NCBI GenBank assembly: GCA_964482515.1
Contig: CAYZXT010000009.1
Coordinates: 16,251-80,250 of the forward strand
Length of the DNA: 64,000 bases
From: an uncultured Elusimicrobia bacterium
GTDB taxonomy: Bacteria > Elusimicrobiota > Elusimicrobia > FEN-1173
Reading direction: 5' to 3'
Each line of letters starts with the position of its first letter. Within the stretch, counting starts at the first letter, position 1. Positions 11,933 to 33,207 of the stretch are shown here, piece by piece. The notes under the pieces are model-generated. The model was given only the letters and a program-made list of their open reading frames with translations. It searched no databases and was not told the DNA's origin. A program made the translations under genes and the position numbers.

Positions 11933-11935
11933 CGG

Positions 11936-14150: not shown

Positions 14151-14164
14151 GAAACGGCCTCCGT

Positions 14165-15451: not shown

Positions 15452-15622
15452 GACGGTATCTCCGGTGTCGCGCAAAGTGTGGTCCCCCGGGAAAGCGCCG
15501 GACGGGCGGTTGCGGGGCGAGCTGTATAAATATGTGCCTAGAAATGAATAAATTCAACGATTTGTTGATTTTGTTTGGGGGAGGGGGGCGGCGGGTTCGT
15601 GAATTCGGGAACGAACGGCGGA

Positions 15623-16818: not shown

Positions 16819-16856
16819 AAAACTGCCACAGCTTGCGGCAGAATTAGGTGAACATT

Positions 16857-17942: not shown

Positions 17943-18011
17943 TGACCCCGTTGGCCCGTTTCTTTGGTTACTTTCTTTCGGGCACGCGAAAGAAAGTGAC
18001 ATAATGTCCGC

Positions 18012-18983
18012 ATGCCACCCCCGTGGAAACCGATATTACTTGTCGGGCTATGCCTGATATCCACCGGCGCGGCGCATCCCTGGTCCCGCGCCGGGCATGA
18101 AGCCTCCGCCCTCATCGCCGAAGGCCGCCTCGACCCCGCCACCCAAGCCAAAATCCGCGCGCTCCTCGGGCCCGGCGTCGGGCTGGACGACATCGCCCTC
18201 TGTTCCGACGCCATCAAGCGCCGCTCCGTGAACTGCGCCGGCGCCTTCTTCGTCAAGCGCGCGCCCCACACCAAGGCCTGGCATTACATCGACATCCCCA
18301 TTTCCGACGAACCCGCCGCCGGCGGCCTGCAGCAGTATTGCCCCAACGACGATTGCGTGACGGACCGCATCGCCGACCAAACCAAGGTCCTCAAAGACCC
18401 CGCCGCCCCGCGGCTGGAGAAGCAGGTCGCGCTCATGCACCTGGTCCATTTCGTGGGCGACCTGCACCAGCCGCTGCACTGCGCCGACGACAGGGACGCC
18501 GGCGGCAACGGCAAGAAGGTCTGGTTCATGGCGGGTCCCCGCGCCCGGAAGCCCGCCACCCTCCACCAGCTCTGGGACAACATGGTGGAGAAGGATTCCG
18601 TGCACGACAGGCTGGACGTCCGCGGCCTGGCCCGGTCCCTGGACGGCGCGATCACGGAGGAGGAAGCCGCGGCCTGGGCCAGGGGCTCCACCCACCAATG
18701 GACGATCGAAAGCCACCGCATCGCCCGGAACACGATCTATCCGCAGTACGCGCGGGACAAGGGGAAGGATTTGGGCAAGGACTACCAGGACGCCATGCGC
18801 CCCATCGCCCATGAACAGGTTCAAAAGGCCGGCGTCCGGCTGGCGGTGCTGCTGGACAAGACCCTGGCCGGCGTCACGGTGGAAGACCTCACCCGCGAAG
18901 CCCCGAAGCGGAAGGCGACGCCCGTTCCCACCGGACAAAAACCGCCCAAAGGCGGCGGCCCCATCCCCCTGCCGGGAAGATAG
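18012..18983 (+). CDS. Exported S1/P1-family nuclease
   Basis: Signal peptide then ...HPWSRAGHEASALIAE, WHYIDIPI, ALMHLVHFVGDLHQPLHC and LHQLWD (zinc ligand motifs of the S1-P1 family), with a Pro/Lys-rich tail. Confidence 0.8.
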   Translation: MPPPWKPILLVGLCLISTGAAHPWSRAGHEASALIAEGRLDPATQAKIRALLGPGVGLDDIALCSDAIKRRSVNCAGAFFVKRAPHTKAWHYIDIPISDEPAAGGLQQYCPNDDCVTDRIADQTKVLKDPAAPRLEKQVALMHLVHFVGDLHQPLHCADDRDAGGNGKKVWFMAGPRARKPATLHQLWDNMVEKDSVHDRLDVRGLARSLDGAITEEEAAAWARGSTHQWTIESHRIARNTIYPQYARDKGKDLGKDYQDAMRPIAHEQVQKAGVRLAVLLDKTLAGVTVEDLTREAPKRKATPVPTGQKPPKGGGPIPLPGR

Positions 18984-19004
18984 GTTTTTGATGTCATTCC
19001 GGCG

Positions 19005-19088
19005 CCTTGCCGCTAGGCATGGTCCCTCTTTGTAAGAAGGGGGGTAGGGTGAGGGTGGGCATTTATCGTGGCACAGCCCGGCCAAATT
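19005..19088 (+). repeat. Dispersed island repeat, copy B
   Basis: CCTTGCCGCTAGGCATGGTCCCTCTTTGTAAGAAGGGG ... TGGCACAGCCCGGCCAAATT. It starts 22 nt after the S1/P1 stop. Confidence 0.75.
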
Positions 19089-19190
19089 TCCTAATATGGC
19101 GAAGTGGTTTTCAGACGGAAACAGCGAGGGCGTCTTGAGGGAATCATGGGGCGCGTGAGGTTTGTTTTGGGAAATGATTAGGAGGATTGT

Positions 19191-21977: not shown

Positions 21978-22008
21978 ATCAAAAAGGTGTTTTTATGAAA
22001 AAGAAACC

Positions 22009-22035
22009 GGTACCGGAGTTGACAGATTGACAATC
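22009..22035 (+). repeat. Copy 2 of the GT(G/A)CCGGAGTTGACA motif
   Basis: GGTACCGGAGTTGACAGATTGACAATC, 32 nt after the MmeI-like stop. Confidence 0.7.
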
Positions 22036-22076
22036 AGGTTCAGTACTAGATTTGATTTGTTGAAGGAGCCCCCGCA

Positions 22077-22223
22077 ATGAAAACCAAAAAGCCCCTCTGC
22101 CAAGCCATCAACACGAAAGGGAAGAAGTGCATTGTCCCTGCCGTGCCCGGCAGCAAATTCTCACCTTCCTACAGACAGGTGCCACGGCTAGCGCCGACGG
22201 GTTTCCGACATAAGAAGAAATAA
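22077..22223 (+). CDS. 48-aa basic protein with a short Cys motif (possibly degenerate)
   Basis: GAAGGAG lies 9 nt upstream of the ATG. The product is MKTKKPLCQAINTKGKKCIVPAVPGSKFSPSYRQVPRLAPTGFRHKKK. It is too short for the ORF track, and its 3' half is made of island repeat copy C. Confidence 0.4.
   Translation: MKTKKPLCQAINTKGKKCIVPAVPGSKFSPSYRQVPRLAPTGFRHKKK
22131..22201 (-). repeat. Dispersed island repeat, copy C (inverted)
   Basis: The reverse complement reads CCCGTCGGCGCTAGCCGTGGCACCTGTCTGTAGGAAGGTG ... GGCACGGCAGGGACAAT. Confidence 0.7.
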
Positions 22224-22369
22224 CTGTCCTTTTCTCCCGTTATTCCCAGCCCGTTTCCCTAAAACTTCAGATTAAATCCCGCTAAGCTCCAGATTCTTCC
22301 TCTATGATGAGGTGAGATATGGTTCTTGATGGTCGTTCACATATATGTTAACCTTGAGGAGATGGCGGC

Positions 22370-22792
22370 GTGAGCACTCATTCTGAGAAGCGGAATTGCG
22401 TGCTTTATTCCGGCCGGTTCTATTCGGCCGAATGGTATTACAGGGAGGACGGCGGGATGCCGGCTCTCGAATATTATCGGGAACTCCCTATCCATGATCG
22501 AGTGCGGCTATTACAGATCATTAAGCACCTGTGCGACGCTCCCTACGGGACAATCCTTCCCGTGACGCTTTACAGGATCGAAGATCGGGAAAACAAGATT
22601 TACGCGTTTAAGCCGAGGGACGAGCGATTCTTCAGTTTTACGATGGAGGGCGCAAGGGTCATCGTTACGAACGCTTACCGCAAGCATTCACAACAGATGA
22701 CCAAGGCGGATCTGGAGTCCTTGAAAACAGCTGTTCGCTATCGGAACGATTATTTGAGGCGCCTGAAAGAGGGGACATATTATGAAGGCTAA
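22370..22792 (+). CDS. RelE/ParE-superfamily toxin (Gp49/DUF891-like)
   Basis: ...KIYAFKPRDERFFSFTMEGARVIVTNAYRKHSQQMTKADLE. The GTG start is preceded by GAGGAG, and the gene overlaps the downstream HTH gene by 11 nt. Confidence 0.65.
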   Translation: MSTHSEKRNCVLYSGRFYSAEWYYREDGGMPALEYYRELPIHDRVRLLQIIKHLCDAPYGTILPVTLYRIEDRENKIYAFKPRDERFFSFTMEGARVIVTNAYRKHSQQMTKADLESLKTAVRYRNDYLRRLKEGTYYEG

Positions 22793-23132
22793 AAAGAAAA
22801 TCAAAAAGGCAAAGAGCACCTTTGATCGGGAAATGGAAAACCCGGAATTCAGGAATCTTTTCGAGGAATCTTGGCCCGCCTTCCAAGTGGAAGTCCAGCT
22901 GCTGAAAGCCTTGGAAGGCAAGCAATGGTCCTATTCCGACCTCGCGAAGGTATTGCACACGCAGAAGAGCGCCATTTCGCGCGACCTGAAAGGCGGCGGC
23001 ATTCGGTCTGCTTCCATCACGCGGATCGCGAAGATGGCGGAAGCCCTGGGAATGAGATTTATCCCGTTCTGCGTCTCCGAGAAGAAGGCGAGGGAAATTC
23101 TTCCCGCTATCAAGAAACTCCTGGCCGCGTAA
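22782..23132 (+). CDS. HTH (XRE-like) antitoxin
   Basis: WSYSDLAKVLHTQKSAISRDLKGGGIRSASITRIAKMAEALGMRF is a helix-turn-helix pattern. The gene is small and translationally coupled to the toxin gene. Confidence 0.65.
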   Translation: MKAKKKIKKAKSTFDREMENPEFRNLFEESWPAFQVEVQLLKALEGKQWSYSDLAKVLHTQKSAISRDLKGGGIRSASITRIAKMAEALGMRFIPFCVSEKKAREILPAIKKLLAA

Positions 23133-23141
23133 TAGGGATTC

Positions 23142-23167
23142 GTGCCGGAGTTGACACGTTGACAATC
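23142..23167 (+). repeat. Copy 3 of the GT(G/A)CCGGAGTTGACA motif
   Basis: GTGCCGGAGTTGACACGTTGACAATC, 10 nt after the antitoxin stop and 32 nt before ATG 23199. Confidence 0.7.
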
Positions 23168-23198
23168 GACCAGCCTATTCTTTAAGTACAATACCTCC

Positions 23199-24242
23199 AT
23201 GCCGAAAGAATCCATCCCCTCGGTCGCCCATCCCGCCTACGCCAAGCTCCGTTCCGCCGTCCACAAAACCCTCCTCCTCGGTCAGAAACAAATCGAACAA
23301 GCCAAAGTCCGTACCTACTACGAAACCGGAAAACACATCCAAGAACATATCGCCCGCTACGGTTCGCGCTCCGAGCATTACGGCGCTCAAGTGGTGGAGA
23401 AGCTTTCGGTTGATTTGGGGATTAGCACCCGGGTCTTGCGGCAGTGTGTGCAGTTCGCCCGGAACTTCAAGATTGTGAACGCGCGTTCACAATCTTTGCC
23501 GGCCCAATTGCCTTGGACGCATTACCGTCAACTGATGACCATTCCGGATGAGGACGCGCGGATTTCCCTGATGAAAAGGGCCGAGAAGTCCGAATGGAGC
23601 GAACGCCAGCTGGCGGAGAAGATCCGCCTTGAGGTGCGAGAAGCAAAGTCCCCGTCAACCAACGGCGGGCATAGTTCAATGGTAGAAAAGAAGTATCCCA
23701 AGCTCATTCCCAAGCGCGGCGAGCTTTACACGTACCGCCTCATTGCGCCGGAAGCGGTTGATGGCGAAGCGGGTCTGTGGATTGATTTGGGTTTCCAGGT
23801 GCGGCGCACCTTTCCACAAACAGGTGCCATGGCTAGCGCCAAGGGCGGACAGATCGTGGAATCCAAAAAGACGGGGGAAATCTATTCCGCGGTCCCGTCC
23901 AAGCGGACGGAGGCGGACTTGTTCACCTTCCAGGCGCCGGTGGAGCGGGTGGTGGACGGCGACACGCTGATCGTGAACGTCGACCTGGGGTTCGACACGG
24001 GCGTGCGGCAATACCTGCGGTTGCGCGGCATCAATTGCCCGGAGCTGGACACGCCGGAGGGCAAGCGGGCCAAGGCCTTCGTGGAAAAGGAATTGGGGAA
24101 AGCGCGGCGGATCATCCTGACGAGCTCCCGGTCCGACAAGTACGACCGCTACCTGGCGGACGTGTTTATTGAGTCCACCAACGGCGAACGATATCTGAAC
24201 CAGGCGCTGCTGGACGAAGGCCTCGCGGTCCGGATGGAATAG
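23199..24242 (+). CDS. DUF1016_N domain fused to a staphylococcal-nuclease (SNase)-like domain
   Basis: The N-terminal 150 aa parallels the YhcG N-domain (…WTHYRQLMTIPDEDARISLMKRAEKSEWSERQLAEKI). The C-terminus reads VVDGDTLIVNVDLGF...YLRLRGINCPELDTPEGKRAKAFVEKEL...DKYDRYLADVFI...YLNQALLDEGLAV. Confidence 0.75.
   Translation: MPKESIPSVAHPAYAKLRSAVHKTLLLGQKQIEQAKVRTYYETGKHIQEHIARYGSRSEHYGAQVVEKLSVDLGISTRVLRQCVQFARNFKIVNARSQSLPAQLPWTHYRQLMTIPDEDARISLMKRAEKSEWSERQLAEKIRLEVREAKSPSTNGGHSSMVEKKYPKLIPKRGELYTYRLIAPEAVDGEAGLWIDLGFQVRRTFPQTGAMASAKGGQIVESKKTGEIYSAVPSKRTEADLFTFQAPVERVVDGDTLIVNVDLGFDTGVRQYLRLRGINCPELDTPEGKRAKAFVEKELGKARRIILTSSRSDKYDRYLADVFIESTNGERYLNQALLDEGLAVRME
23809..23845 (-). repeat. 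Dispersed island repeat, copy D (inverted, inside a CDS)
   Basis: The reverse complement reads CCCTTGGCGCTAGCCATGGCACCTGTTTGTGGAAAGG. On the + strand it encodes TFPQTGAMASAKG in the linker of the DUF1016_N-SNase protein. Confidence 0.65.
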
Positions 24243-24248
24243 CCCTCC

Positions 24249-24303
24249 CAATCTTCATCCCTCCTTCAGTCGTTCTTCAGACTTAAAAAGTAATCTCTCC
24301 TCC
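24249..24303 (+). promoter_or_regulatory. Conserved ORF6N leader, copy L2
   Basis: CAATCTTCATCCCTCCTTCAGTCGTTCTTCAGACTTAAAAAGTAATCTCTCCTCC, followed by an ATG (24304) that hits a stop after 4 codons. Confidence 0.7.
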
Positions 24304-24334
24304 ATGAATTGTGCATGATGAATGGGAGGACTAG

Positions 24335-24359
24335 AGGTGGTCGCAAATTGCGACCGCCT
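24335..24359. repeat. Near-perfect palindrome in the ORF6N-2 5' region, sharing a 17-nt core with the copy-1 in-gene palindrome
   Basis: AGGTGGTCGCAA-A-TTGCGACCGCCT has one T:G mismatch. The core GGTCGCAAATTGCGACC (24339-24355) is identical to 2035-2051. Confidence 0.8.
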
Positions 24360-24386
24360 TCGACCACTCAAATTCTTGGAGGTTTT

Positions 24387-24914
24387 ATGCGAGCTGTAAT
24401 GAAAACCGAACACATTCAATCGATGATATTCCTGATTCGCGGGCGCAAGGTCATGTTGGACCGTGATTTGGCGGCGCTTTATGGCATTGCCACAAAGGTC
24501 CTTAAGCAGGCTGTTAAGCGGAATCATTTGCGATTCCCGGAGGATTTCATGTTTGAACTGTCTGCGGAAGAGCAGTCAAATTGGAGGTCACAATTTGTGA
24601 CCTCCAATTCTTCCCTGAATAAGGGACTCCGGTGGCGTTCAATGGCATTCACTGAGTATGGTGTGGCCATGCTTTCCGGCGTTCTGAAAAGTGAAAGGGC
24701 CGTTCAGGTTAATATCGCCATCGTTCGGGCATTTATCGACATGCGGCGGATGATTTCGGAAACACGAGGGTTGGCGGAGAAATTGGCGGAGCATGAGAAA
24801 AAGATCGGGGGACTGGCGAACGATGTCCGGCATATGTTCGACCTGCTACAGCCGTTGCTGGATGGACCCACTAAAAAACCCGGGAAGATCGGGTTCGGAA
24901 TGCGACAGATTTAG
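24387..24914 (+). CDS. ORF6N domain protein, copy 2 (apparently intact)
   Basis: MRAVMKTEHIQSMIFLIRGRKVMLDRDLAALYGIATKVLKQAVKRNHLRFPEDFMFELSAEEQSNWRSQFVTSN...[35 protein letters not shown] lies 4 nt before ATG 24387; the frame is open from 24309. Confidence 0.85.
   Translation: MRAVMKTEHIQSMIFLIRGRKVMLDRDLAALYGIATKVLKQAVKRNHLRFPEDFMFELSAEEQSNWRSQFVTSNSSLNKGLRWRSMAFTEYGVAMLSGVLKSERAVQVNIAIVRAFIDMRRMISETRGLAEKLAEHEKKIGGLANDVRHMFDLLQPLLDGPTKKPGKIGFGMRQI
24579..24609. repeat. Perfect 31-nt palindrome inside ORF6N copy 2 (15-bp arms)
   Basis: AATTGGAGGTCACAA-T-TTGTGACCTCCAATT, checked base by base. It encodes NWRSQFVTSN. Confidence 0.9.
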
Positions 24915-25570
24915 CGGGCGATGAGGGCGTTGTACGCCCGGATGGCGGCGTAGGCGTCGTTGGCGGCGTAGAGGAGTTGCAGTTCGCTGAGGATCGGGAG
25001 CCCCCAGTTGGACGTGCCCTGCTTTTTGGATTTGAGGAAGCGTTGTTTGAAGAGCAGCGCGATGCCCACCTTGGAGCCCACGCCGCGGCCGAAGCCCTTT
25101 TCGGCGAAGAGCGTTTCGAGGTCCACCACGCCGTGGGGCTCGACGCGCAGTTTCTTGCGGATGCGCGACAGGTCGTCCCCCAGGCCGAAACCCACTTTTT
25201 TGAGGCTCTTAAAAGAGATGAGTTCGGCGGCGGCCTGGCGGCATTCCGGCTGGTTCAGCATGAACACGTAGCCGCGCGTGGCGGTGGCGAACTGGACGAC
25301 GTGGGGGCCGGTGGAGACCTGTCCTTTATGGAAGGTGGGTTTGGATTCGGTGTCGAAGCCCACCACGCTTTCGGCCGCGAGCTCCTTGAACGCCCGCTGC
25401 GCGAGGGCCGGCGTGTTCACCGCGAGGATGTCCCCGCGGCGCAGGGCGTGGAACGGCGGAAGGGCCGCCATTTCCTCGCGCGTGGGCCAGTGGGCCGGGC
25501 GCTGGCGGTTCGGGACGCGCGGCGGCGCGGAGGGTTTGAACAGTTTTTTGAGCCAGCGGCGGATGACCAA
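24911..25570 (-). CDS. 3'-5' exonuclease, DEDDy (RNase D / WRN-exo-like) family
   Basis: VVGFDTESKP (DxE), KKVGFGLGDDLSRI and LLYAANDAYAAIRAY (Yx3D). Confidence 0.75.
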   Translation of the reverse strand: MVIRRWLKKLFKPSAPPRVPNRQRPAHWPTREEMAALPPFHALRRGDILAVNTPALAQRAFKELAAESVVGFDTESKPTFHKGQVSTGPHVVQFATATRGYVFMLNQPECRQAAAELISFKSLKKVGFGLGDDLSRIRKKLRVEPHGVVDLETLFAEKGFGRGVGSKVGIALLFKQRFLKSKKQGTSNWGLPILSELQLLYAANDAYAAIRAYNALIAR

Positions 25571-25576
25571 GGGGGA

Positions 25577-26212
25577 TTACGGTTTCCGGAACAGCGAGGC
25601 GTCCACCGGGCCGGGGGTGAACTCGACGGCTTCCTCGGTCCGCCGGAAGACGGTGGTGTTGGCCTGGGAGGAGTGCAAAACGATTTCGGCCTTCAGGACC
25701 GCGCCCGTCTCGGCGTCCACCCAGGCGTCGACGCTGCGCACGGAGTCCGGCAATTTCACCTTGGCGTGGTAGCGCCGGGCCTTGCGGCCCGCCACTGTTT
25801 CGGTCTCGCCCGCCTCGCCGGTGTAGGCCTTCCGCCAGAAGCGGATCTCGTGGAGCTCCGCCTCCGTGGGTTTGTGGGAATACTCGGAGGGCTCCGTGGC
25901 GTGCGCGCCGTCGGGCGAAGGGGCGTAGACGATCTTTTCGAACAGGGTCTCGCCGTCGAAGAACCGCGTCACCTTGTATTCGGCGGGGGGCGCCATGAAG
26001 CGGTCCTCCCGCGCGTCGGCCTCGGTGCGGAAGCGCTTCCCGTCGGTGTGGATCCTGACGCGCTCCGCGGTTTTCGTGCCGGCCGTTTCGTTCTCCCGGA
26101 TGACCGTCCAGGTGCCGCTGAAGGGCGAGTCCTGGACGCGGCTGGGCGAGCATTTCTTGAGCAGGAAAGCGAAGGCGGCGACGGCGAGGACGGCCAGGAG
26201 CAGGTTCTTCAT
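25577..26212 (-). CDS. Exported or anchored protein of unknown function
   Basis: It begins MKNLLLAVLAVAAFAFLLKKCSPS and is soluble and beta-rich afterwards. There is a 6-nt gap to the downstream exonuclease gene. Confidence 0.5.
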   Translation of the reverse strand: MKNLLLAVLAVAAFAFLLKKCSPSRVQDSPFSGTWTVIRENETAGTKTAERVRIHTDGKRFRTEADAREDRFMAPPAEYKVTRFFDGETLFEKIVYAPSPDGAHATEPSEYSHKPTEAELHEIRFWRKAYTGEAGETETVAGRKARRYHAKVKLPDSVRSVDAWVDAETGAVLKAEIVLHSSQANTTVFRRTEEAVEFTPGPVDASLFRKP

Positions 26213-26287
26213 GGCCTGATTGTAAGAAACAACCGCCGCCGGTTCAAGGGCGGAGATTCACCCGACCCGCTTCCGAGGCCTTCCTCC

Positions 26288-26344
26288 CAATCTTCATCCT
26301 CCCTCCCGCGGTTCTTCAGAATCAAAAAGTAACCTTTCCTGCGG
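26288..26344 (+). promoter_or_regulatory. Conserved ORF6N leader, copy L3
   Basis: CAATCTTCATCCTCCCTCCCGCGGTTCTTCAGAATCAAAAAGTAACCTTTCCTGCGG is fused directly to mid-gene ORF6N sequence. Confidence 0.7.
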
Positions 26345-26551
26345 TTCCCGGAAGATTTCGCATTTCGCCTGAATAAAGAGGAATATGAGTCTTTAAGATT
26401 CCAAACTGGAATCTTAAAGAGAGGACAGCACGCCAAGTATCTGCCATTGGTATTCACTGAGCAAGGCGTTGCCATGCTCTCGAGCGTTCTCCGGAGCAAA
26501 CAGGCGGTTCAAGTGAACATCGCCATCATGCGAGTTCCCCTACTCCCTTGA
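26333..26551 (+). pseudogene. ORF6N relic (copy 3), lacking both the N-terminal and C-terminal parts
   Basis: A frame without a start codon reads ...[64 protein letters not shown], then PLLP*. The IRG.KVMLD.DLA..YGV N-terminal segment is missing. Confidence 0.8.
26390..26420. repeat. Perfect 14-bp-arm palindrome inside the ORF6N relic
   Basis: TCTTTAAGATTCCA-AAC-TGGAATCTTAAAGA, checked base by base. It encodes [11 protein letters not shown]. Confidence 0.9.
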
Positions 26552-26577
26552 TAGTAAGTAGCTTATAAACTACACTT

Positions 26578-26925
26578 ATGGAGGCCGGGTTGGAAATCAA
26601 ACCCCTGAAGATTGAATATTATTACGCGAGGGATGGCCGGGTTCCCTATAGGGAATGGTTTTATTCCTTGAAAGATATGAAAACCCGGCAGATTATCATT
26701 GCACGCTTAACGCGGGTGGAGCGGGGATTGTTGGGAGATTCTAAGTCCATTGGTTCGGGCGTTCATGAACTCCGGATTGATAAAGGACCAGGATATCGTA
26801 TTTATTTTGGACGACAGGGCGATCACGTCATCCTGCTTTTATTAGGCGGCACTAAGAGCAGCCAAAGGAAAGACATTGAAAAAGCCCATGATTATTGGGT
26901 GGATTATTTAAGGAGACAAGGATGA
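26578..26925 (+). CDS. Addiction-module killer protein (RelE/HigB-like, COG3657-type)
   Basis: ...DGRVPYREWFYSLKDMKTRQIIIARLTRVERGLLGDSKSIGSGVHELRIDKGPGYRIYFGRQGDHVILLLLGGTKSSQRKDIEKA. Confidence 0.8.
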   Translation: MEAGLEIKPLKIEYYYARDGRVPYREWFYSLKDMKTRQIIIARLTRVERGLLGDSKSIGSGVHELRIDKGPGYRIYFGRQGDHVILLLLGGTKSSQRKDIEKAHDYWVDYLRRQG

Positions 26926-27236
26926 AGAAGCCCACGTACCATGAAGATCTCATTGAAAGCTTGAAGGACCCTAAATACGCCTTGGGGTATCTGAACGCCT
27001 GTTTGGAAGATGAGGACGAAGGGGTGTTCCTCCTGGCATTGAAGCATGTGGCCGAAGCCCATGGCGGGTTGAGCGGACTGGCGAAGAAAACGGGATTGAA
27101 CCGGGAACATCTTTTTCGAATGTTGTCCAAGAACGGGAATCCGCGCCTGGAAAACCTGCGGCAGGTGGCCGGCGCGTTCGGGTGGAAGATCCGCTTCGTG
27201 GAGATGAAATCCCCGAAACTGCGCCGCGCCGCTTAA
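26922..27236 (+). CDS. Addiction-module antidote protein (HigA-family HTH)
   Basis: MKKPTYHEDLIESLKDPKYALGYLNACLEDEDEGVFLLALKHVAEAHGGLSGLAKKTGLNREHLFRMLSKNGNPRLENL. It has an ATGA start/stop overlap with the toxin gene. Confidence 0.8.
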   Translation: MKKPTYHEDLIESLKDPKYALGYLNACLEDEDEGVFLLALKHVAEAHGGLSGLAKKTGLNREHLFRMLSKNGNPRLENLRQVAGAFGWKIRFVEMKSPKLRRAA

Positions 27237-27451: not shown

Positions 27452-27604
27452 CTCTGGAAAAAAATCGAAGGGGGGTCCTGTTGATTGGTGGGAAAGCGTG
27501 GGGGCGTCTCTACTTCTAGTTTAGCAAACCCGCCGGGGGATTGGTCGCCTGGACATAAGTTGTTTTCCGGGCAAGACTTATCCGCGAGTTCTATAATACT
27601 CCCC

Positions 27605-28528
27605 ATGCCCTCGAGCCGCACGTTTCAAAGGATGGTTTTGCTGGCCGCTTTCTTCGCGTCCGCGCCCGGATTTGTCTTCGCGGCGCCGGAGGAAGCGTCG
27701 ACCGCCGAACGGCAGCGGCACCACCAGCTGGGCGTCGACGTGGGGTCCGACGTCGATCCCGACATCCTGTCGCCCTCCGCGCCCCAGGGCCTCGACCGCC
27801 GCTTCGAGTGGGACTACCGCTTCGTGATCAGGGAAGATCGGGCGGGCGTCAACGCCCAATACCACAATCCCAAACGCCTTCAAAAACTCAGCTTCAGCTA
27901 CCGCCAACGCATGGACTTCCCCAGTCGCGCGGGGCTGGGCCCGACGCGAAACCGCCTGTACAAATCCCTCGGCCAGAAGACGCGCTCGCGGGACGTGAGC
28001 GGCTACGTGGCGGGATCCGCCTTGGTGTTGAACCCCTATTGGGGGATCAGCCTGGTGCACGACGAATATGTGAAAGACAACGCCAACGAGCTTTTCAACC
28101 AGCACGCCACGACCCTTGGGCTGGGCTACAGTCCCCTGGGCGACAACCGGGGCCGGCCCTGGAGCTACACCATTGATCCTTCCGTGACCTACGCGCGGTT
28201 CCACGGGCTCAAACCGGTGCCCAACCAGCATTGGGAAAGCTTCGGCTATTCCCTCGGATCAAGCTTCTATTACGGCCTCGACTGGGTCCGCGTTCCCCTC
28301 GGGCGGTCGTTCAAATTGGACCGCCTGAAGCTGAGCGTGTCCGTGTCCGACGCCGAGGTTTCGGACTTCGCGATCAACGGGGGCGTCGACCTGACGGCCT
28401 ACGCCACCCGCCACATCAAGCTGAAGCTGGGCGTCGAAAACAGCTACACGCCCGAAACGGGGAAGCATTCCTTCCGCCTGCGCGCGGGGCTGAGCCTGCG
28501 GCTGACCTGGTCCGACCTGAACTTCTGA
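27605..28528 (+). CDS. Outer-membrane beta-barrel protein, unknown function
   Basis: Taken from the internal ATG: MPSSRTFQRMVLLAAFFASAPGFVFAAPEE (signal peptide). It ends ...LSLRLTWSDLNF. Confidence 0.55.
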   Translation: MPSSRTFQRMVLLAAFFASAPGFVFAAPEEASTAERQRHHQLGVDVGSDVDPDILSPSAPQGLDRRFEWDYRFVIREDRAGVNAQYHNPKRLQKLSFSYRQRMDFPSRAGLGPTRNRLYKSLGQKTRSRDVSGYVAGSALVLNPYWGISLVHDEYVKDNANELFNQHATTLGLGYSPLGDNRGRPWSYTIDPSVTYARFHGLKPVPNQHWESFGYSLGSSFYYGLDWVRVPLGRSFKLDRLKLSVSVSDAEVSDFAINGGVDLTAYATRHIKLKLGVENSYTPETGKHSFRLRAGLSLRLTWSDLNF

Positions 28529-28542: not shown

Positions 28543-28562
28543 GCCGCATCGTGCGGCTTTTG
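28543..28562 (+). terminator. Intrinsic terminator
   Basis: GCCGCA-tcg-TGCGGC-TTTTGG, 15 nt after the stop at 28528. Confidence 0.55.
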
Positions 28563-28634
28563 GTATCTTTCCTCCGTGCCGTCCATCCCCGGCCCGACTC
28601 TCCCCACTCAAAAGAAAATGGAACCCATCTAAAC

Positions 28635-29531
28635 ATGCAAAACCGACACCAAGACGATAACGAACGCCGGTTCTACGCCGGACAAGCCGTCGATCCCTCG
28701 CCCCGCATCCGCCTCGAAGACGGCAGCTCGGAGCTGACCATGCGCGCCATGGACCTGGTGAGCCCCATCGGCATGGGGCAGCGCGGCTACATCGTCGCGC
28801 CGCCGGGTTCCGGCAAGACCACTTTCCTCAAGCACATCTGCAACGCCGTGGCGAAGTCCCACCCGGAGATCAAGCTTTACTGCCTGCTGATCAACGAGCG
28901 GCCGGAGGAAGTGACGGACTTCAAGCGGAGCGTGACGGCCGAAGTGCGGGCGTCGTCCTCCGACGAGAGCTACGAGCACCACGCGCAGATGGCGGACGCG
29001 CTGATGCGGCAGGCCATCCGCGAGGCGGGCGAGGGGAAAAACGTGATGATCGTGATCGATTCGCTGACGCGGCTGGCGCGGGTGCACAACGCGCAGCGGC
29101 ATTCCAGCGGGCGCACCATGTCCGGCGGCCTGGACTCCGGGGCGCTGGAAATCCCGCGGCGGATCTTCGGCGCGGCGCGGAAGATCGAGAACGGCGGTTC
29201 CCTGACGATCCTGGCGACGGTGCTCGTGGAGACCGGCAGCCGAATGGACGACGTGATCTTCGAGGAGTTCAAGGGCACGGGCAACATGGAAATATTTCTG
29301 TCGCGGGAGATGTCCAGCCTGCGGATCTTCCCGGCGGTGGACATCGCCAAGAGCGGCACCCGCAAGGAAGAGCTGCTGTTCGACGCCGACGAGCTCGACG
29401 CGGTGCGGAAACTGCGCCGGGCGCTGTCCCAGATGAAGCCCGTGGACGCGGCGCGGGAGCTCGTCGACCAGTTGAAAAGCTATCCCACCAACAAGGCGTT
29501 CCTCGCCGCGGTCAAAAGCTCCGGGATTTAA
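28635..29531 (+). CDS. Rho-like RecA-type ATPase lacking the N-terminal primary RNA-binding domain
   Basis: MQNRHQDDNERRFYAGQAVDPSPRIRLEDGSSELTMRAMDLVSPIGMGQRGYIVAPPGSGKTT (Walker A), VMIVIDSLTRLARVHN (Walker B), a Q-loop-like RHSSGRTMSGGLDSGAL, an R-loop-like TGSRMDDVIFEEFKGTGN, and FPAVDIAKSGTRKEELL. It is only about 298 aa. The sequence upstream in frame is not NTD-like. Confidence 0.8.
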   Translation: MQNRHQDDNERRFYAGQAVDPSPRIRLEDGSSELTMRAMDLVSPIGMGQRGYIVAPPGSGKTTFLKHICNAVAKSHPEIKLYCLLINERPEEVTDFKRSVTAEVRASSSDESYEHHAQMADALMRQAIREAGEGKNVMIVIDSLTRLARVHNAQRHSSGRTMSGGLDSGALEIPRRIFGAARKIENGGSLTILATVLVETGSRMDDVIFEEFKGTGNMEIFLSREMSSLRIFPAVDIAKSGTRKEELLFDADELDAVRKLRRALSQMKPVDAARELVDQLKSYPTNKAFLAAVKSSGI

Positions 29532-29554
29532 CCCTCCGAAACGGCAAACCTGCC

Positions 29555-30085
29555 ATGGAACTCAAAAGCGTCGCGGCAACCCTGAAGCGATGGGGGATGA
29601 TCGTCCTCGGCGCGTCGGTCATATTTTCATTTTGCGCGGGCATCGTGACGATGCTCGGCGCGGTCAACGAATTGCGCCTGATGAAGGCGGCCCGCTCCTG
29701 GGAAGGGCGTCCCGGGATCATCCGGGTGTCCTACGCGCGCGAACTCCGGGGCCCCGCCGTCAAGAAACCCCGTTGGAAGGTGGAAGCGGCGGGGGATTAC
29801 GCCGACGGATCGGGGTCCTTCGCCGTCATGCGTTTGGCGTACGGGTTCGGCAACGGCGGCGGCACGCGGAGGCGCGGCGCGGAAGCGGCGGCGAAGCGTT
29901 ATCCTCCGGGGACGGAACTGACGGTCTATCCCGCGCCCGGACGTCCGAAATGGGTTGTCCTGGACAACGACCCGCCCGCGCGGCTCACGTACGCCGGGCT
30001 GTTGGCGGGGTTCGCGGGGGCGCTGCTGCCTTTTATTTTGTTCTTCCTGGGAACTTTCCGGCGCCGGGCCCGTTCTCAGGGATGA
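29555..30085 (+). CDS. Two-TM membrane protein (DUF3592-like)
   Basis: It has an N-terminal TM (MIVLGASVIFSFCAGIVTMLGAV), a beta-rich middle, and a C-terminal TM (YAGLLAGFAGALLPFILFFLGTF). Confidence 0.45.
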   Translation: MELKSVAATLKRWGMIVLGASVIFSFCAGIVTMLGAVNELRLMKAARSWEGRPGIIRVSYARELRGPAVKKPRWKVEAAGDYADGSGSFAVMRLAYGFGNGGGTRRRGAEAAAKRYPPGTELTVYPAPGRPKWVVLDNDPPARLTYAGLLAGFAGALLPFILFFLGTFRRRARSQG

Positions 30086-30168: not shown

Positions 30169-30501
30169 ATGGGCAGGGTCGCGGTCTATTCGGTTTCGGT
30201 GGTCAAGCGGGAGAGGAACACTCCGGTCTACAACATCGGCGTGATGTCGCGGCTGACCGGGCTTCCCGTGCACACGCTGCGGTGGATCGAGCAGCAGGGG
30301 CTGATCTCCCCGTTCCGGACCGACGGAAACCAAAGGCTCTTTTCGGAGGAGGATGCGGACTTGATCCAGCGGATCCGCGAGTTGATGGACCAGCACGTCA
30401 ACCTGCCGGGGATTCGGATCATCCTCCAGCTGAAGACGGGAAAAGCCGGGGCTTCCCGGCCGGCGCAGAAAACAAAACGGCCAGCCCGACCGCCCAAGTA
30501 G
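30169..30501 (+). CDS. MerR-family transcriptional regulator (heat-shock HspR-like context)
   Basis: YNIGVMSRLTGLPVHTLRWIEQQGLISPFRTDGNQRLFSEEDADLIQRIRELM. It lies directly upstream of two hsp20 genes. Confidence 0.8.
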   Translation: MGRVAVYSVSVVKRERNTPVYNIGVMSRLTGLPVHTLRWIEQQGLISPFRTDGNQRLFSEEDADLIQRIRELMDQHVNLPGIRIILQLKTGKAGASRPAQKTKRPARPPK

Positions 30502-30526
30502 GGTCTATATTTTTTTACCGCATAAA

Positions 30527-30551
30527 TGGCACTCGCGTCGCGTGAGTGCCA
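30527..30551. promoter_or_regulatory. Inverted repeat between the merR-like gene and hsp20 (operator or RNA hairpin candidate)
   Basis: TGGCACTCGCG-tcg-CGTGAGTGCCA (11-bp arms, one G:T position), 7 nt upstream of the AAAGGAGG SD of hsp20. Confidence 0.45.
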
Positions 30552-30573
30552 GAACAAAAAGGAGGTAACCGCC

Positions 30574-31005
30574 ATGCTGTTAGCAGAACTCACCAACAAA
30601 ATCTGGGATCCGCTTGAGGCCGTCAGCCAGATCCGCAACGAGATGAACCGGATGTTCCGGGAGAGGACCGGGTTCCCGGCCTTCCCCGCCTTGAACATTT
30701 GGGCGGGCGAAAACCAGGCCGTCGTCACGGCCGAGATGCCGGGCGTCGATCCCCAGGACATCGACATATCCGTGGAGGAGAACGTCCTCTATTTGTCGGG
30801 CTCCCGGAAATGGGACGAGCCGAAGGCGGAAGACGTCGTCCATCGGGTCGAATGTCCCAACGGTTCTTTCAGCCGCACGCTGAAGCTGCCGTTCCGCGTG
30901 GACGCGGATCGCATCCAGGCGACCTGTTCCAAGGGCGTCCTCACCGTCGTCTTGCCGCGCGCGGAGCAGGACAAGCCGAAAAAAATCCAAGTGAAAGCGG
31001 CCTAA
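30574..31005 (+). CDS. Hsp20/alpha-crystallin small heat-shock protein
   Basis: ...PALNIWAGENQAVVTAEMPGVDPQDIDISVEENVLYLSGSRK...FSRTLKLPFRVDADRIQATCSKGVLTVVLPR. ATG 30574 is preceded by AAAGGAGG. Confidence 0.9.
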   Translation: MLLAELTNKIWDPLEAVSQIRNEMNRMFRERTGFPAFPALNIWAGENQAVVTAEMPGVDPQDIDISVEENVLYLSGSRKWDEPKAEDVVHRVECPNGSFSRTLKLPFRVDADRIQATCSKGVLTVVLPRAEQDKPKKIQVKAA

Positions 31006-31028
31006 AAGCCGGAAGGAGGAGATGAGTT

Positions 31029-31421
31029 ATGTCCAACAATATGACCGTGCAGCAAAGCCAGGAAACCCAGCCCGTCCGGGCGGAGCGGAAGGTGTTCGTG
31101 CCCGCCGTGAACATCTACGAGACGAAGGAAAACATCGTGCTCATGGCGGACATGCCGGGCGTGGATGAAAACAGTGTCGACATCACGCTGGAGAACGACG
31201 TGCTGACCGTGCAGGGACGGTCGTCGGTGGAGGCGCCCCGGGGGCTTGAGCCGGCCTACGCCGAGTATTCCTCGGGCGACTACCGCCGCTCCTTCACGCT
31301 CTCGGCGAACCAGATCAACCGGGACGGCATCGAGGCCGCGCTGAAGAACGGCGTGCTGAAGGTGACGCTGCCCAAGACCGAGGCCGTGAAGCCGAAGAAG
31401 ATCGCGGTGAGGGTGGAATAG
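31029..31421 (+). CDS. Hsp20/alpha-crystallin small heat-shock protein
   Basis: ...PAVNIYETKENIVLMADMPGVDENSVDITLENDVLTVQGR...YRRSFTLSANQINRDGIEAALKNGVLKVTLPK. Confidence 0.9.
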   Translation: MSNNMTVQQSQETQPVRAERKVFVPAVNIYETKENIVLMADMPGVDENSVDITLENDVLTVQGRSSVEAPRGLEPAYAEYSSGDYRRSFTLSANQINRDGIEAALKNGVLKVTLPKTEAVKPKKIAVRVE

Positions 31422-31962: not shown

Positions 31963-33207
31963 TTACTTCCACCGTCGCCGGTGTTGTTGTGGTTTCTGGT
32001 GCTGATGGTGTCCGTGGGAAGAATGCCGGTTGTGGTGCTGCCCCGGGCGGCTGGAGGACGCGTTCACGGGCAGCCTGGGCGGGTTGTTGTACCGGAAGTC
32101 CGGCACCACGGCCCGCGGGAAGACGACCCGGATGAACCGCTCGATGGCCTTCAGGAAACTTTCCTCCGACGGATCGTAGAGCGTGATGGCGTCGCCCACG
32201 CCGTAGGCCCGGGCGGTGCGTCCGACCCGGTGGACGTAGTCCTCGGGGTGGCGGGGCACGTCGAAGTTCACCACGTGGCTGATGTGGCGCACGTCGATGC
32301 CGCGCGCCGCGATGTCGGTGGCCACCAGGATCTGCGTGCGGCCGTGGCGGAAATCCTCCATGGCGGTGACGCGCTGGTTCTGGGACCTGTTGGAGTGCAG
32401 CGTGCCGACGCGGTAGCCCTTTTGCTGGAGCCGCTTCGCCACCTTGTCCGCGCCGTGCTTGGTCCGCATGAACACCAGGACCGATTTCATTTCCGTGGAA
32501 GACAGCAGCGTTTCCAAGAGCTCGAACTTCTGCGATTGGATCACGGGGTAGGCGATCTGGGCGATGCCCTCGGCCACCGTGGTCGGCTTGGAGATCTGGA
32601 TGCGCAGCGGGTTGTGCATGGCGAAGGCCGCGATGCGCTCGATCTCGTCGTGGAGCGTGGCGGAGAAAAGCTGCGTCTGCCGCTGTTTCGGGACGCGGCC
32701 CAGGATGGCCTTGATGTCCGGCAGGAAACCCATGTCGAGCATGCGGTCCGCTTCGTCGAGGATCAGGTGTTCCACGCGGTCCAGGTTGAAACTGCCGCGC
32801 TTCAGGTGATCGAGGAGGCGTCCGGGCGTGGCGACCAGAATGCCGGCGCCGTGCCGAACCGCCGAGACCTGGGGCCCGTATCCCACGCCGCCGATGACCA
32901 CGGCGACTTTCATGTGGGTGAACTTGGCGCATTCCCTCACCGTCTGCTCGACTTGCGCCGCGAGCTCCCGCGTGGGGACCAGGATCAGCGCCCGGAGCCC
33001 GGGCTTCGGGTTCTTGAGGAGATGGTTCAGGAGGGGGAGCGTGAAGGCCGCGGTCTTTCCGCCGCCGGTCTGGGCGCAGCCGAGGATGTCGCGGCCTTCC
33101 AGCGCCGACGGGATCGCCTGCGTTTGGATGGGGGTCGGTTCCTTGAACCCCATGGCGCCGACGGCGCGCACGAGGTCGTGATGAAGTCCTAGTTTTTGAA
33201 ATGGCAT
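31963..33207 (-). CDS. DEAD-box ATP-dependent RNA helicase (RhlE-like)
   Basis: Q-motif GFKEPTPIQ, AQTGGGKT, PTRELA, DEAD (ILDEADRMLDMGF), SAT, ARGIDV and HRVGRTAR, with a His/Gln/Arg-rich tail. Confidence 0.95.
   Translation of the reverse strand: MPFQKLGLHHDLVRAVGAMGFKEPTPIQTQAIPSALEGRDILGCAQTGGGKTAAFTLPLLNHLLKNPKPGLRALILVPTRELAAQVEQTVRECAKFTHMKVAVVIGGVGYGPQVSAVRHGAGILVATPGRLLDHLKRGSFNLDRVEHLILDEADRMLDMGFLPDIKAILGRVPKQRQTQLFSATLHDEIERIAAFAMHNPLRIQISKPTTVAEGIAQIAYPVIQSQKFELLETLLSSTEMKSVLVFMRTKHGADKVAKRLQQKGYRVGTLHSNRSQNQRVTAMEDFRHGRTQILVATDIAARGIDVRHISHVVNFDVPRHPEDYVHRVGRTARAYGVGDAITLYDPSEESFLKAIERFIRVVFPRAVVPDFRYNNPPRLPVNASSSRPGQHHNRHSSHGHHQHQKPQQHRRRWK

What the first reader, a model, noticed from the sequence alone, without database searches (positions are those of the whole stretch)
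28635..30085. Headless Rho: a Rho ATPase-domain protein without the N-terminal RNA-binding domain, paired with a DUF3592-like membrane protein
The roughly 298-aa product aligns with Rho from the linker onward. It retains Walker A and B, Q-loop-like and R-loop-like segments and the C-terminal FPAIDI..SGTR motif. The roughly 125-aa NTD (primary RNA-binding OB/CSD fold) is absent, and the upstream in-frame sequence is unrelated. A terminator lies about 70 nt upstream. A two-TM DUF3592-like gene follows after 23 nt.

Without the primary binding site, such a hexameric motor could not load on rut sites in the usual way. It may be a specialised translocase recruited by another partner, or a paralog with regulatory or defence function. 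Whether a full-length rho exists elsewhere in the genome is unknown from this window.
Basis: partly seen in the sequence, partly recalled or inferred. Interest (0 to 1): 0.55.

Follow-up and report, generated by a model that had tools for sequence, protein, structure and literature searches.

The report
Rho paralog lacking its RNA-binding head
This gene encodes only the motor half of the bacterial transcription terminator Rho; it belongs to a large, tightly conserved and apparently unstudied family of such "headless" Rho proteins, which in at least one related genome appears to sit alongside a normal full-length Rho.

Summary
Window 28635-29531 (+) encodes a 298-aa protein that matches Rho only from the NTD-CTD connector onward (Rho model positions 131-412). 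Walker A/B, the catalytic Glu/Arg, the Arg finger and the Q- and R-loops are intact. No Rho N-terminal domain is found anywhere in the 64-kb window.

It is not a truncation artefact. More than 120 database proteins (71-86% identical) and GTDB loci from Omnitrophota, Elusimicrobiota and one cultured gammaproteobacterium share the architecture. Many carry a short Arg-rich or RGG-like tail instead of the NTD.

These proteins form one clade (NJ bootstrap 97/100), separate from the canonical Rho of the same phyla. They never lie in the canonical coaE-rho-rpmE-prfA context. In one Omnitrophota case a headless and a canonical Rho both report the same longest contig, 521,238 bp.

The gene is therefore best read as an accessory Rho paralog: probably a rut-independent ring RNA translocase. 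Its function is inferred, not shown.

The "pairing" with the DUF3592-like gene is not conserved in any of 21 related loci. There is no support for a defence role. Whether this particular genome also has a canonical rho remains untested.

The parts
28543..28565 (+). Terminator-like hairpin (GCCGCA-TCG-TGCGGC plus TTTTGG) ending the upstream gene (27485-28528). It separates that gene from the headless rho transcription unit.
   Evidence: It lies 15 nt after the upstream stop codon. The count of such sites in the region is not above shuffles.
28566..28634 (+). C-rich, G-poor leader of 69 nt (29 C, 9 G) before the start codon. It looks rut-like, but the feature is not conserved in relatives.
   Evidence: the C-G excess is in the top 0.4% of 70-nt windows of this window. 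Leaders of L081, L082, L084 and L086 are not C-rich.
28635..29531 (+). Headless Rho gene: 298 aa comprising the connector and the Rho C-terminal ATPase/translocase domain, with no NTD.
28665..28733 (+). Conserved connector motif RRFYAGQAVDPSPRIRLEDGSSE (residues 11-33), the family's N-terminal signature. It aligns to E. coli Rho residues about 130-155.
   Evidence: F13, P21 and E28 invariant; P23, R24, R26 and L27 at least 90% conserved.
28800..28823 (+). Walker A / P-loop PPGSGKTT (E. coli K181 is Gly here; K184 and T185 are kept).
28896..28901 (+). Catalytic Glu and Arg valve (E88/R89, equivalent to E. coli E211/R212).
   Evidence: invariant in 120 of 120 family members.
29046..29063 (+). 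Walker B (MIVIDS; D142 is equivalent to E. coli D265).
29097..29135 (+). Q-loop of the secondary RNA-binding site (RHSSGRTMSGGLD; E. coli K283 is Arg and T286 is Ser here).
29229..29243 (+). R-loop of the secondary RNA-binding site (ETGSR; E. coli K326 is Arg here).
29331..29372 (+). PAVDIAKSGTRKEE motif (residues 233-246; F232 precedes it) containing the Arg finger (R243, equivalent to E. coli R366).
29555..30085 (+). Adjacent two-TM DUF3592-like gene, 23 nt downstream and probably co-transcribed. It is not a conserved partner of the family.
   Evidence: searches (22.2 bits, below the cut-off; two hydrophobic segments), (absent next to relatives).

Best explanation
The gene encodes a member of a distinct, strongly conserved paralog family of Rho. 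The protein consists only of the NTD-CTD connector plus the C-terminal RecA-type ATPase/translocase domain.

Shown:
- The fold, all catalytic residues and both secondary-site RNA loops are those of Rho.
- The whole N-terminal domain is absent, here and in every family member examined. That domain comprises the helix bundle and the OB-fold primary RNA-binding site.
- The family is one clade, apart from canonical Rho, including canonical Rho of Elusimicrobiota and Omnitrophota.
- It occupies different genomic contexts from canonical rho.

Strongly indicated: the family co-exists with a canonical Rho. One Omnitrophota headless Rho and one canonical Rho report the same 521,238-bp longest contig. 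A copy also occurs in a cultured gammaproteobacterium, a group in which canonical Rho was found in every surveyed species.

Inferred:
- The protein assembles into a Rho-like hexameric ring.
- The ring takes single-stranded RNA into its central channel through the Q- and R-loops and translocates 5'->3' on ATP.
- Lacking the primary binding site, it cannot select rut sites. It therefore acts as a sequence-independent accessory RNA translocase/helicase beside the housekeeping Rho, for example in clearing RNA-protein or RNA-DNA complexes, or in RNA surveillance or decay.
- In many relatives an Arg-rich or RGG-like N-terminal tail probably supplies non-specific RNA affinity. The protein in this window has almost no tail, so it would depend on the central channel alone or on an unidentified recruiter.
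For: Identity as a Rho CTD:
- PRK09376 383 bits, model positions 131-412
- E 7.5e-90 to PDB Rho
- pLDDT 94, top 50 structural hits all Rho

Active-site and RNA-loop conservation in 120 of 120 family members.

NTD absent:
- in the window:
- in relatives: N-termini of 120 proteins; L001-L009, L018; no Rho_RNA_bind even in maximal ORFs

Distinct clade: tree; 97/100 bootstrap for the headless clade. Twenty signature positions separate the family from canonical Rho.

Different context: coaE-rho-rpmE-prfA-prmC is found at canonical loci L030, L058, L046 and L171 but at none of 22 headless loci.

Co-occurrence:
- Headless P0069 and canonical P0207 both list a longest contig of 521,238 bp. They are only 51% identical over the CTD.
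- Canonical Rho is widespread in both phyla.
- L002 is from the isolate Gilvimarinus polysaccharolyticus YN3. All 1045 Pseudomonadota surveyed in PMC11347177 had a functional Rho.

Basic tails: 37 of 120 members have tails longer than 30 aa with 19% Arg and 31% R+K+H. L004-L009 carry RGG/Q-rich tails.

RNA-metabolism neighbours in several subclades:
- RNase R adjacent in L081
- RNase E/G nearby in L005-L009
- a DEAD-box helicase adjacent in L002 and 2.4 kb away in the window
Against: - No biochemical data exist for any member. Hexamer formation, RNA-dependent ATPase activity and translocation are all inferred from conservation.
It is shown for the Omnitrophota sister clade, not for this genome.
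- The neighbour hints toward RNA metabolism differ between subclades and could be chance.
- This protein lacks the basic tail that would make PBS-independent RNA capture easy to imagine.
- The invariant Walker-A K181-to-Gly change and 20 family-specific substitutions could alter activity in unknown ways.
Confidence: 0.55

Rival explanations
1. It is the organism's only, housekeeping Rho: a minimal termination factor that has dispensed with the primary RNA-binding site and terminates transcription by some PBS-independent route (for example direct recruitment to RNA polymerase).
For: No canonical rho or Rho NTD occurs in the 64-kb window. The family is very strongly conserved, at 71-86% identity across MAGs assigned to two phyla. 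The gene has core-like codon bias. NCBI's PRK09376 cut-off is passed, so pipelines name it Rho.
Against: The family is a separate clade from the canonical Rho of the same phyla. Canonical Rho is common in Elusimicrobia, including high-GC lineages, and in Omnitrophota. A headless and a canonical Rho share a 521,238-bp longest contig. Headless genes never sit in the coaE-rho-rpmE-prfA locus. A copy exists in a gammaproteobacterial isolate. A 64-kb window is a small fraction of a genome.
Confidence: 0.17
2. It is a modulatory subunit. It co-assembles with canonical Rho into mixed hexamers or caps Rho rings, which dilutes primary binding sites and so tunes or inhibits rut-dependent termination.
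For: It co-occurs with canonical Rho. The whole CTD, which carries the hexamer interfaces, is retained, as is the connector.
Against: It is only 51% identical to the co-resident canonical CTD, with 20 family-specific fixed substitutions. Full conservation of catalytic and RNA-loop residues is what an autonomous motor needs, but it is also compatible with this rival. Nothing here tests the interfaces.
Confidence: 0.15
3. It is a split Rho: the N-terminal RNA-binding domain is encoded by a separate gene elsewhere and docks in trans on this CTD.
For: NTD-only Rho-like proteins are reported in some bacteria (PMC11347177).
Against: There is no NTD gene in the window or in any of 21 related loci within up to 10 kb. 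Many relatives have replaced the NTD with unrelated basic tails. A full-length Rho appears to co-reside in at least one genome.
Confidence: 0.05
4. It is a two-gene module with the DUF3592-like membrane protein, possibly an anti-phage or membrane-associated system.
For: The two genes are 23 nt apart with no terminator between them. A defence/mobile island ends 1.4 kb upstream. There is a weak PADLOC mad8 hit of 31.9 bits over the P-loop region.
Against: The neighbour is absent from all 21 other headless loci. The gene's GC3 of 0.87 matches core genes, not the island at 0.56-0.69. Only 17 relatives (mostly about 50% identical) turned up in 2.9 million viral contigs. The PADLOC match is partial and generic.
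Confidence: 0.04
5. It is a truncated pseudogene or an assembly/frameshift artefact of a normal rho.
For: None beyond the missing NTD.
Against: The upstream DNA is occupied by a different gene and a hairpin, and an in-frame stop lies at 28518. No NTD remnant is found in any frame. The same architecture occurs in more than 120 independent sequences from many assemblies. All catalytic residues are intact.
Confidence: 0.01

Closest known systems
Canonical transcription termination factor Rho (E. coli, T. thermophilus; TIGR00767, PRK09376)
   Same: The C-terminal domain has the same fold and motifs: P-loop, catalytic Glu/Arg, Walker B, Arg finger, Q- and R-loops and the connector. It is about 48% identical to E. 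coli Rho over 283 aligned positions and superposes at 1.2-1.5 A.
   Different: The entire NTD (about 130 aa: Rho_N helix bundle plus the OB-fold primary RNA-binding site) is missing. The protein falls in a separate clade, has 20 fixed family-specific substitutions, and lies in a different genomic context with no coaE/rpmE/prfA neighbours. It scores below the TIGR00767 cut-off (367 vs 509 bits).
Short Rho paralogs: 'Group B' (D'Heygere 2013) / Type 4 Rho (Moreira et al. 2024, PMC11347177) / NCBIfam NF041509 'Rho, short form'
   Same: These are also second, shorter Rho copies that co-occur with a full-length Rho. One OB-only Rho (L042) groups with the headless clade in the tree (98/100 for headless + L018 + L042).
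   Different: Those proteins lack only the Rho_N helix bundle and keep the OB-fold RNA-binding domain. This protein lacks both. It aligns to NF041509 positions 78-359 only and scores 330 bits against a 628-bit cut-off.
'Rho-like' single-domain sequences noted by Moreira et al. 2024 (PMC11347177)
   Same: That paper set aside proteins with only one Rho domain as 'Rho-like' and non-functional by definition. ATPase-only proteins such as this one would fall in that bin.
   Different: They were described only in supplementary material, which is not held here. That survey covered complete RefSeq genomes and does not mention Omnitrophota or Elusimicrobiota in its main text. No family, phylogeny or function was proposed in the text I could read.
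Rho factors with intrinsically disordered basic insertions (Type 2: Bacteroides, Mycobacterium, Micrococcus)
   Same: Many headless relatives carry Arg-rich or RGG-like disordered N-terminal tails. These resemble in composition the disordered regions described for atypical Rho. PMC11347177 reports that the Bacteroides fragilis Rho insertion raises RNA affinity.
   Different: In Type 2 Rho the disordered region is added to an intact NTD. Here it replaces the NTD, and the protein in this window has essentially no tail (about 10 residues).
FliI / type III secretion ATPases and F1-ATPase alpha/beta subunits (nearest non-Rho relatives)
   Same: They share the RecA-type ATP-synt_ab nucleotide-binding fold (PF00006).
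   Different: Scores are 89 bits or less against cut-offs of 380-750 bits. The Rho-specific Q-loop, R-loop and C-terminal motifs are present here.

Membership tests
Transcription termination factor Rho (canonical, 'functional Rho' = RNA-binding domain + ATPase domain) | Rho-type RecA ATPase domain with Walker A/B, catalytic Glu, Arg valve and Arg finger | tested here: met
   K184, T185, E211, R212, D265, R269 and R366 equivalents are all present and invariant in 120 relatives. K181 is Gly.
Transcription termination factor Rho (canonical, 'functional Rho' = RNA-binding domain + ATPase domain) | Secondary RNA-binding site: Q-loop and R-loop | tested here: met
   both loops are present, with conservative K283R, T286S and K326R changes that are fixed or nearly fixed in the family.
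Transcription termination factor Rho (canonical, 'functional Rho' = RNA-binding domain + ATPase domain) | OB-fold/CSD primary RNA-binding domain (PF07497, Rho_RNA_bind) | tested here: not met
   There is no Pfam hit. The alignment to Rho models starts at position 131. No NTD is found in any frame of the window.
Transcription termination factor Rho (canonical, 'functional Rho' = RNA-binding domain + ATPase domain) | N-terminal helix bundle (PF07498, Rho_N) | tested here: not met
Transcription termination factor Rho (canonical, 'functional Rho' = RNA-binding domain + ATPase domain) | Curated whole-protein HMM cut-offs | tested here: inconclusive
   PRK09376 scores 383 bits against a cut-off of 315 (passed). 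TIGR00767 scores 367 bits against a cut-off of 509 (failed).
Transcription termination factor Rho (canonical, 'functional Rho' = RNA-binding domain + ATPase domain) | RNA-dependent ATPase, 5'->3' translocation and termination of transcription | not testable with these tools
   This needs biochemistry or genetics.
Rho short form / Group B / Type 4 (NF041509 paralog_Rho2) | Lacks Rho_N but retains the OB-fold RNA-binding domain; NF041509 score of at least 628 bits | tested here: not met
   the score is 329.8 bits, aligned only to model positions 78-359 of 360. The OB domain is absent.
Headless (CTD-only) Rho clade defined here | Protein begins, after at most a short or disordered tail, at the connector motif (R/K)F(Y/F/L)AGxA(V/I)DPSPRIRLE | tested here: met
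   The window protein carries residues 11-33, RRFYAGQAVDPSPRIRLEDGSSE.
Headless (CTD-only) Rho clade defined here | Falls inside the clade separated from canonical Rho; carries signature residues (G181, Y205, C206, F219, V273, R298, I300 in E. coli numbering) | tested here: met
   (97/100 for the clade; 97/100 for the subclade P0001/2/8/13/26). for the signature residues.
FliI / T3SS ATPase and F1-ATPase families | Curated NCBIfam cut-offs (380-750 bits) | tested here: not met
   the best score is 89 bits.
Known anti-phage defence proteins (PADLOC-DB v2) | Full-length match to a defence-system component | tested here: not met
   only a partial match to mad8 (31.9 bits, residues 33-134, the P-loop region). 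The neighbours give no hits.
DUF3592 (the downstream neighbour, 29555-30085) | Pfam PF12158 gathering score; TM - beta domain - TM layout | tested here: inconclusive
   the score is 22.2 bits against a cut-off of 25.3, over half the model; two hydrophobic segments flank the central region.

The most novel reading that the evidence does not exclude
Bacteria of at least two candidate-rich phyla (and sporadically others) keep a second Rho motor with no primary RNA-binding site. This would be a rut-blind ring translocase that either provides a sequence-independent termination or RNA-surveillance pathway parallel to canonical Rho, or mixes into Rho hexamers to set how rut-dependent termination is. 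Either case would mean the NTD is not obligatory for a biologically useful Rho ring.
Probability: 0.3. Interest if true: 0.7.

Novelty: new variant of a known kind. Interest (0 to 1): 0.5.

Why it matters
Current work defines a functional Rho by the presence of both the RNA-binding and the ATPase domains, and treats the primary binding site as the entry point for RNA (PMC11347177; PMC12360218). Here a large family is 71-86% identical across MAGs assigned to two phyla, keeps every catalytic and central-channel residue, and has shed the whole NTD. That pattern argues that a Rho ring can be useful without rut recognition.

The family offers a natural minimal Rho for asking how the ring opens, loads and closes without PBS allostery. 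It also raises the question of what a second Rho does in a cell. One carrier, Gilvimarinus polysaccharolyticus YN3, is cultured, which makes this testable.

In practice, annotation pipelines name these proteins "transcription termination factor Rho". Presence/absence surveys of Rho in uncultured phyla can therefore be misled.

Tried and rejected
1. Direct display of the 521,238-bp contig carrying P0069 and P0207. The look-up of encoding contigs collapses similar places and showed other contigs. The co-location therefore rests on identical longest-contig lengths.

2. Metagenome scan with P0207 to find it on the JGI contig that carries P0069.

3. Near-equal contig lengths (P0088 281,628 vs P0215 280,929). 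The look-ups returned different records, so nothing was learned.

4. Third protein search with a high-GC Elusimicrobia canonical Rho. Co-occurrence in this window's own subclade is therefore untested.

5. The GTDB scan with the single protein was saturated by exact-peptide matches in canonical Rho. Only about 10 headless loci were recovered, and not this genome.

6. NusG-dependence idea. I tried to obtain the Rho residues that contact NusG-KOW, but the papers are not held and reviews give no residue list. The substitutions at E. coli positions 203, 205, 228 and 232 (K, Y, R, S) lie, as I recall, near that pocket. This is memory, not a test.

7. C-rich leader as a conserved rut-like attenuator. 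It is not conserved in relatives.

8. A conserved partner gene. All-against-all comparison of neighbours in 14 loci found none shared across subclades.

9. Defence and phage association. Both were negative.

10. Literature. I found no paper describing CTD-only Rho as a family.
Full report
**What is in the sequence**

Window 28635-29531 (+) is an intact 298-aa ORF that starts at ATG. The reading frame is closed upstream by TGA at 28518-28520. The only longer start is GTG 28551, which lies inside a terminator-like hairpin (28543-28557 plus TTTTGG). That hairpin follows the stop of the preceding gene, 27485-28528.

The product matches Rho and nothing else at family level:
- NCBIfam PRK09376 scores 383 bits, aligned to model positions 131-412 of 413.
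- PDB phmmer matches T. thermophilus Rho residues 148-425 (E 7.5e-90) and E. coli Rho residues 142-417.
- FliI/T3SS and F1 ATPase models reach at most 89 bits against cut-offs of 380-750.
- An AlphaFold2 model built with 43 aligned sequences has mean pLDDT 94.2. Its 50 best Foldseek matches in the PDB are all Rho chains (TM 0.92 on the query, rmsd 1.2-1.5 A over about 283 columns).

Pfam finds only the generic ATP-synt_ab domain, with no Rho_N or Rho_RNA_bind. tblastn with the NTDs of E. coli, an Elusimicrobia and an Omnitrophota Rho finds nothing in any frame of the 64-kb window (best E 0.48). There is no second Rho CTD either. That gene's Pfam hit is 22.2 bits, just under the 25.3 cut-off.

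**Is the motor intact?**

I aligned the protein with E. coli Rho and 120 relatives. The protein keeps the following (E. coli numbering in parentheses):
- the P-loop Lys/Thr (K184, T185)
- the catalytic Glu and Arg valve (E211, R212)
- Walker B (D265)
- R269
- the Arg finger (R366)
- E334 and G337
- the Q-loop and the R-loop

The only changes in the RNA loops are K283R, T286S and K326R, fixed or nearly fixed in the family. K181 of the P-loop is invariably Gly. Twenty positions are fixed in the family and essentially absent from canonical Rho, for example Y205, C206, F219, V273, R298 and I300. This is the pattern of an active enzyme under strong purifying selection, not of a decaying fragment.

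**It is a family, not an accident**

The protein database returned 8000 Rho-like proteins. The best 120 are 71-100% identical to the query and 285-376 aa long. All carry PF00006 only and all begin at the same place. After a variable tail comes the motif (R/K)F(Y/F)AGxA(V/I)DPSPRIRLEDGS, which aligns with the NTD-CTD connector of E. coli Rho.

Half of the 120 have tails of 12 residues or fewer, like the window protein. Thirty-seven have tails longer than 30 residues, rich in Arg (19%), Pro, Ser, His and Asn. Named members come from Elusimicrobiota and Omnitrophota MAGs.

A scan of one genome per GTDB species recovered further headless genes:
- Omnitrophota (L001)
- an unclassified MAG (L003)
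- six Elusimicrobiota MAGs with long RGG/Gln-rich tails (L004-L009)
- one unclassified MAG with a long Arg/Gly-rich tail (L018), which falls outside the 97% clade
- the cultured gammaproteobacterium Gilvimarinus polysaccharolyticus YN3 (L002, 318 aa, 67% identical)

Even the maximal ORFs of the long-tailed forms show no RNA-binding domain.

**Paralog or sole Rho?**

Four lines of evidence point to a paralog.

First, the phylogeny. In a neighbour-joining tree of CTDs, all headless proteins except L018 form one clade (97/100 bootstraps). The canonical Rho of Elusimicrobia (L011, L030, L058) and Omnitrophota (L046) sits among the canonical Rho of other phyla. An OB-only Type 4 Rho (L042) and L018 are the nearest outgroups (98/100 for the larger group). 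This hints that the family arose within the known short-paralog lineage by further loss of the OB fold.

Second, the genomic context. Canonical rho of both phyla lies in the classical coaE-rho-rpmE-prfA-prmC arrangement (L030, L058, L046, L171). None of the 22 headless loci, the window included, has any of those neighbours.

Third, distribution. Canonical Rho with all three Pfam domains is abundant in both phyla, including high-GC Elusimicrobia.

Fourth, co-location. The headless Omnitrophota protein P0069 (HOW58464.1, 334 aa) and the canonical Omnitrophota Rho P0207 (472 aa) both list a longest contig of exactly 521,238 bp. Among roughly ten contigs per list in the 10^5-bp range, a chance match of exact lengths is very unlikely, so they are almost certainly on one contig. 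Over the CTD they are only 51% identical.

Gilvimarinus adds an independent case. Moreira et al. found a functional Rho in all 1045 Pseudomonadota they surveyed (PMC11347177), so the headless copy there must be an extra one. An IS-type transposase lies 4 kb upstream of it.

I could not show that this window's own genome has a canonical rho. The window is 64 kb of a 91-kb contig, and my attempts to reach the rest failed.

**Neighbours**

The DUF3592-like gene is not next to any relative. It is adjacent and probably co-transcribed here, but it is not a partner of the family. No gene is shared across subclades.

Within subclades the neighbours are ordinary chromosomal genes:
- An HI0933-like flavoprotein recurs in the window's subclade.
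- The RGG subclade has RNase E/G - murI - headless rho - ridA.
- The Omnitrophota example has DUF981 upstream and a 77-aa ORF overlapping the stop codon.

RNA-metabolism genes turn up repeatedly. RNase R is immediately downstream in L081 and 3 kb away in L084/L085. RNase E/G is nearby in L005-L009. A DEAD-box helicase is adjacent in L002, and one lies 2.4 kb downstream in the window (the two are 42% identical). The gene differs each time, so I treat this as a hint only.

A defence/mobile island lies at 16.8-27.2 kb and ends 1.4 kb upstream. It holds an MmeI-type RM enzyme, nucleases and toxin-antitoxin pairs. Its GC3 is 0.56-0.69, whereas the headless rho has the core-genome value of 0.87. PADLOC gives only a partial P-loop match. 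Only 17 Rho relatives appear in 2.9 million viral contigs, the closest at a contig end. There is no support for a defence role.

**How it most likely works**

Shown: a Rho CTD with an intact ATPase site and intact central-channel RNA loops, no primary binding site, and membership of a conserved paralog clade.

Inferred from the established Rho mechanism (PMC12360218):
- The CTD carries hexamer cohesion, ATP hydrolysis and translocation.
- RNA entry into the secondary site is what closes and activates the ring.
- The NTD provides rut recognition and tethering.

A CTD-only ring should therefore still be able to close on RNA and translocate 5'->3', but without sequence selection or tethered tracking. 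I propose a rut-independent accessory RNA translocase working beside canonical Rho. In many relatives the Arg-rich or RGG tails would give non-specific RNA affinity. This is analogous to the disordered insertions of atypical Rho; one of these, in Bacteroides fragilis, is reported to raise RNA affinity (PMC11347177).

The window protein has almost no tail. It must rely on the channel alone or on a recruiter not identifiable here.

Rival readings cannot be excluded with these tools. They are scored in the rival list: the sole minimal Rho, a subunit that mixes into canonical Rho rings, and a split Rho with the NTD supplied in trans.

**Comparison with what is known**

The published classifications recognise Rho with three domains, with insertions or extensions, and short paralogs that lack only the Rho_N helix bundle. 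The short paralogs are called Group B, Type 4, or NCBIfam NF041509. The window protein fails that last model (330 vs 628 bits, aligned from position 78) because the OB fold is missing too.

Moreira et al. define proteins with a single Rho domain as "Rho-like", exclude them from "functional Rho", and describe them only in supplementary text that I could not read. The 2025 review of Rho does not mention such proteins. I found no paper treating CTD-only Rho as a family.

Annotation pipelines call them "transcription termination factor Rho" because the PRK09376 cut-off (315 bits) is passed by the CTD alone.

I therefore rate it as a new variant of a known kind. It is real, widespread and conserved, but its function is unproven.

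Noticed in passing
window 16848-27236: A low-GC3 defence/mobile island. It contains a YhcG/DUF1016 PDDEXK nuclease (16848-17942) and an S1/P1 nuclease (18012-18983). It also has a complete MmeI-family type IIL restriction-modification enzyme (19191-21977, 928 aa, all five MmeI Pfam domains). Further genes are a toxin-like ORF plus HTH antitoxin (22370-23132), a DUF1016_N-SNase fusion (23199-24242), an ORF6N protein (24309-24914) and a 3'-5' exonuclease (24911-25570, minus strand). A HigB(Gp49)/HigA-like pair (26578-27236) closes the island.
   Followed up: partly
L004-L009 and L018 (GTDB Elusimicrobiota and unclassified MAGs): A second subclade of headless Rho. Here the NTD is replaced by 40- to over 100-residue RGG/Gln/Gly-rich low-complexity tails that include runs such as RRRRRR. 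In L005-L009 the gene sits in a conserved RNase E/G - murI - rho - ridA arrangement.
   Followed up: partly
L002:9935-10891 (Gilvimarinus polysaccharolyticus YN3, NZ_LFIJ01000002.1): A cultured gammaproteobacterium carries a headless Rho (318 aa, 67% identical). A DEAD-box helicase lies convergently adjacent (10917-12134) and an IS-type transposase sits 4 kb upstream. This is probably a horizontal acquisition and gives an experimentally tractable carrier.
   Followed up: partly
window 31963-33207 (-): A RhlE-like DEAD-box RNA helicase lies 2.4 kb downstream of the headless rho. It is 42% identical to the helicase adjacent to the headless rho in Gilvimarinus. This may be coincidence.
   Followed up: partly
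window 28566-28634: The leader of the headless rho is unusually C-rich and G-poor (29 C, 9 G in 69 nt; top 0.4% of the window). This resembles a rut site, which would allow attenuation by a canonical Rho. It is not conserved in the leaders of relatives.
   Followed up: yes
window 30169-31421: A MerR-family regulator is followed by two Hsp20/alpha-crystallin genes (36% identical to each other). This is a compact heat-shock operon immediately downstream of the DUF3592-like gene.
   Followed up: no
window 45762-45922 (-): A cobalamin riboswitch (Rfam RF00174, 32.7 bits, just above the gathering score) lies directly upstream of a TonB-dependent receptor gene (43729-45771, minus strand).
   Followed up: no
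window 53009-60314: A Pel-like exopolysaccharide gene cluster. It includes a DUF3492-GT4 glycosyltransferase (56489-57943, PelF-like), PelG (57953-59383) and two large ORFs without Pfam hits (53009-56531).
   Followed up: no
window 12891-15475 (-): Two adjacent proteins carry the Peptidase_S74 (endosialidase chaperone) domain typical of phage tail fibres. Their GC3 of about 0.9 matches the host core genome.
   Followed up: no
L086:9005-9238 (Omnitrophota, also L087/L088): A 77-aa ORF without Pfam hits starts at the stop codon of the headless rho, suggesting translational coupling in that subclade. It is absent from the window.
   Followed up: no
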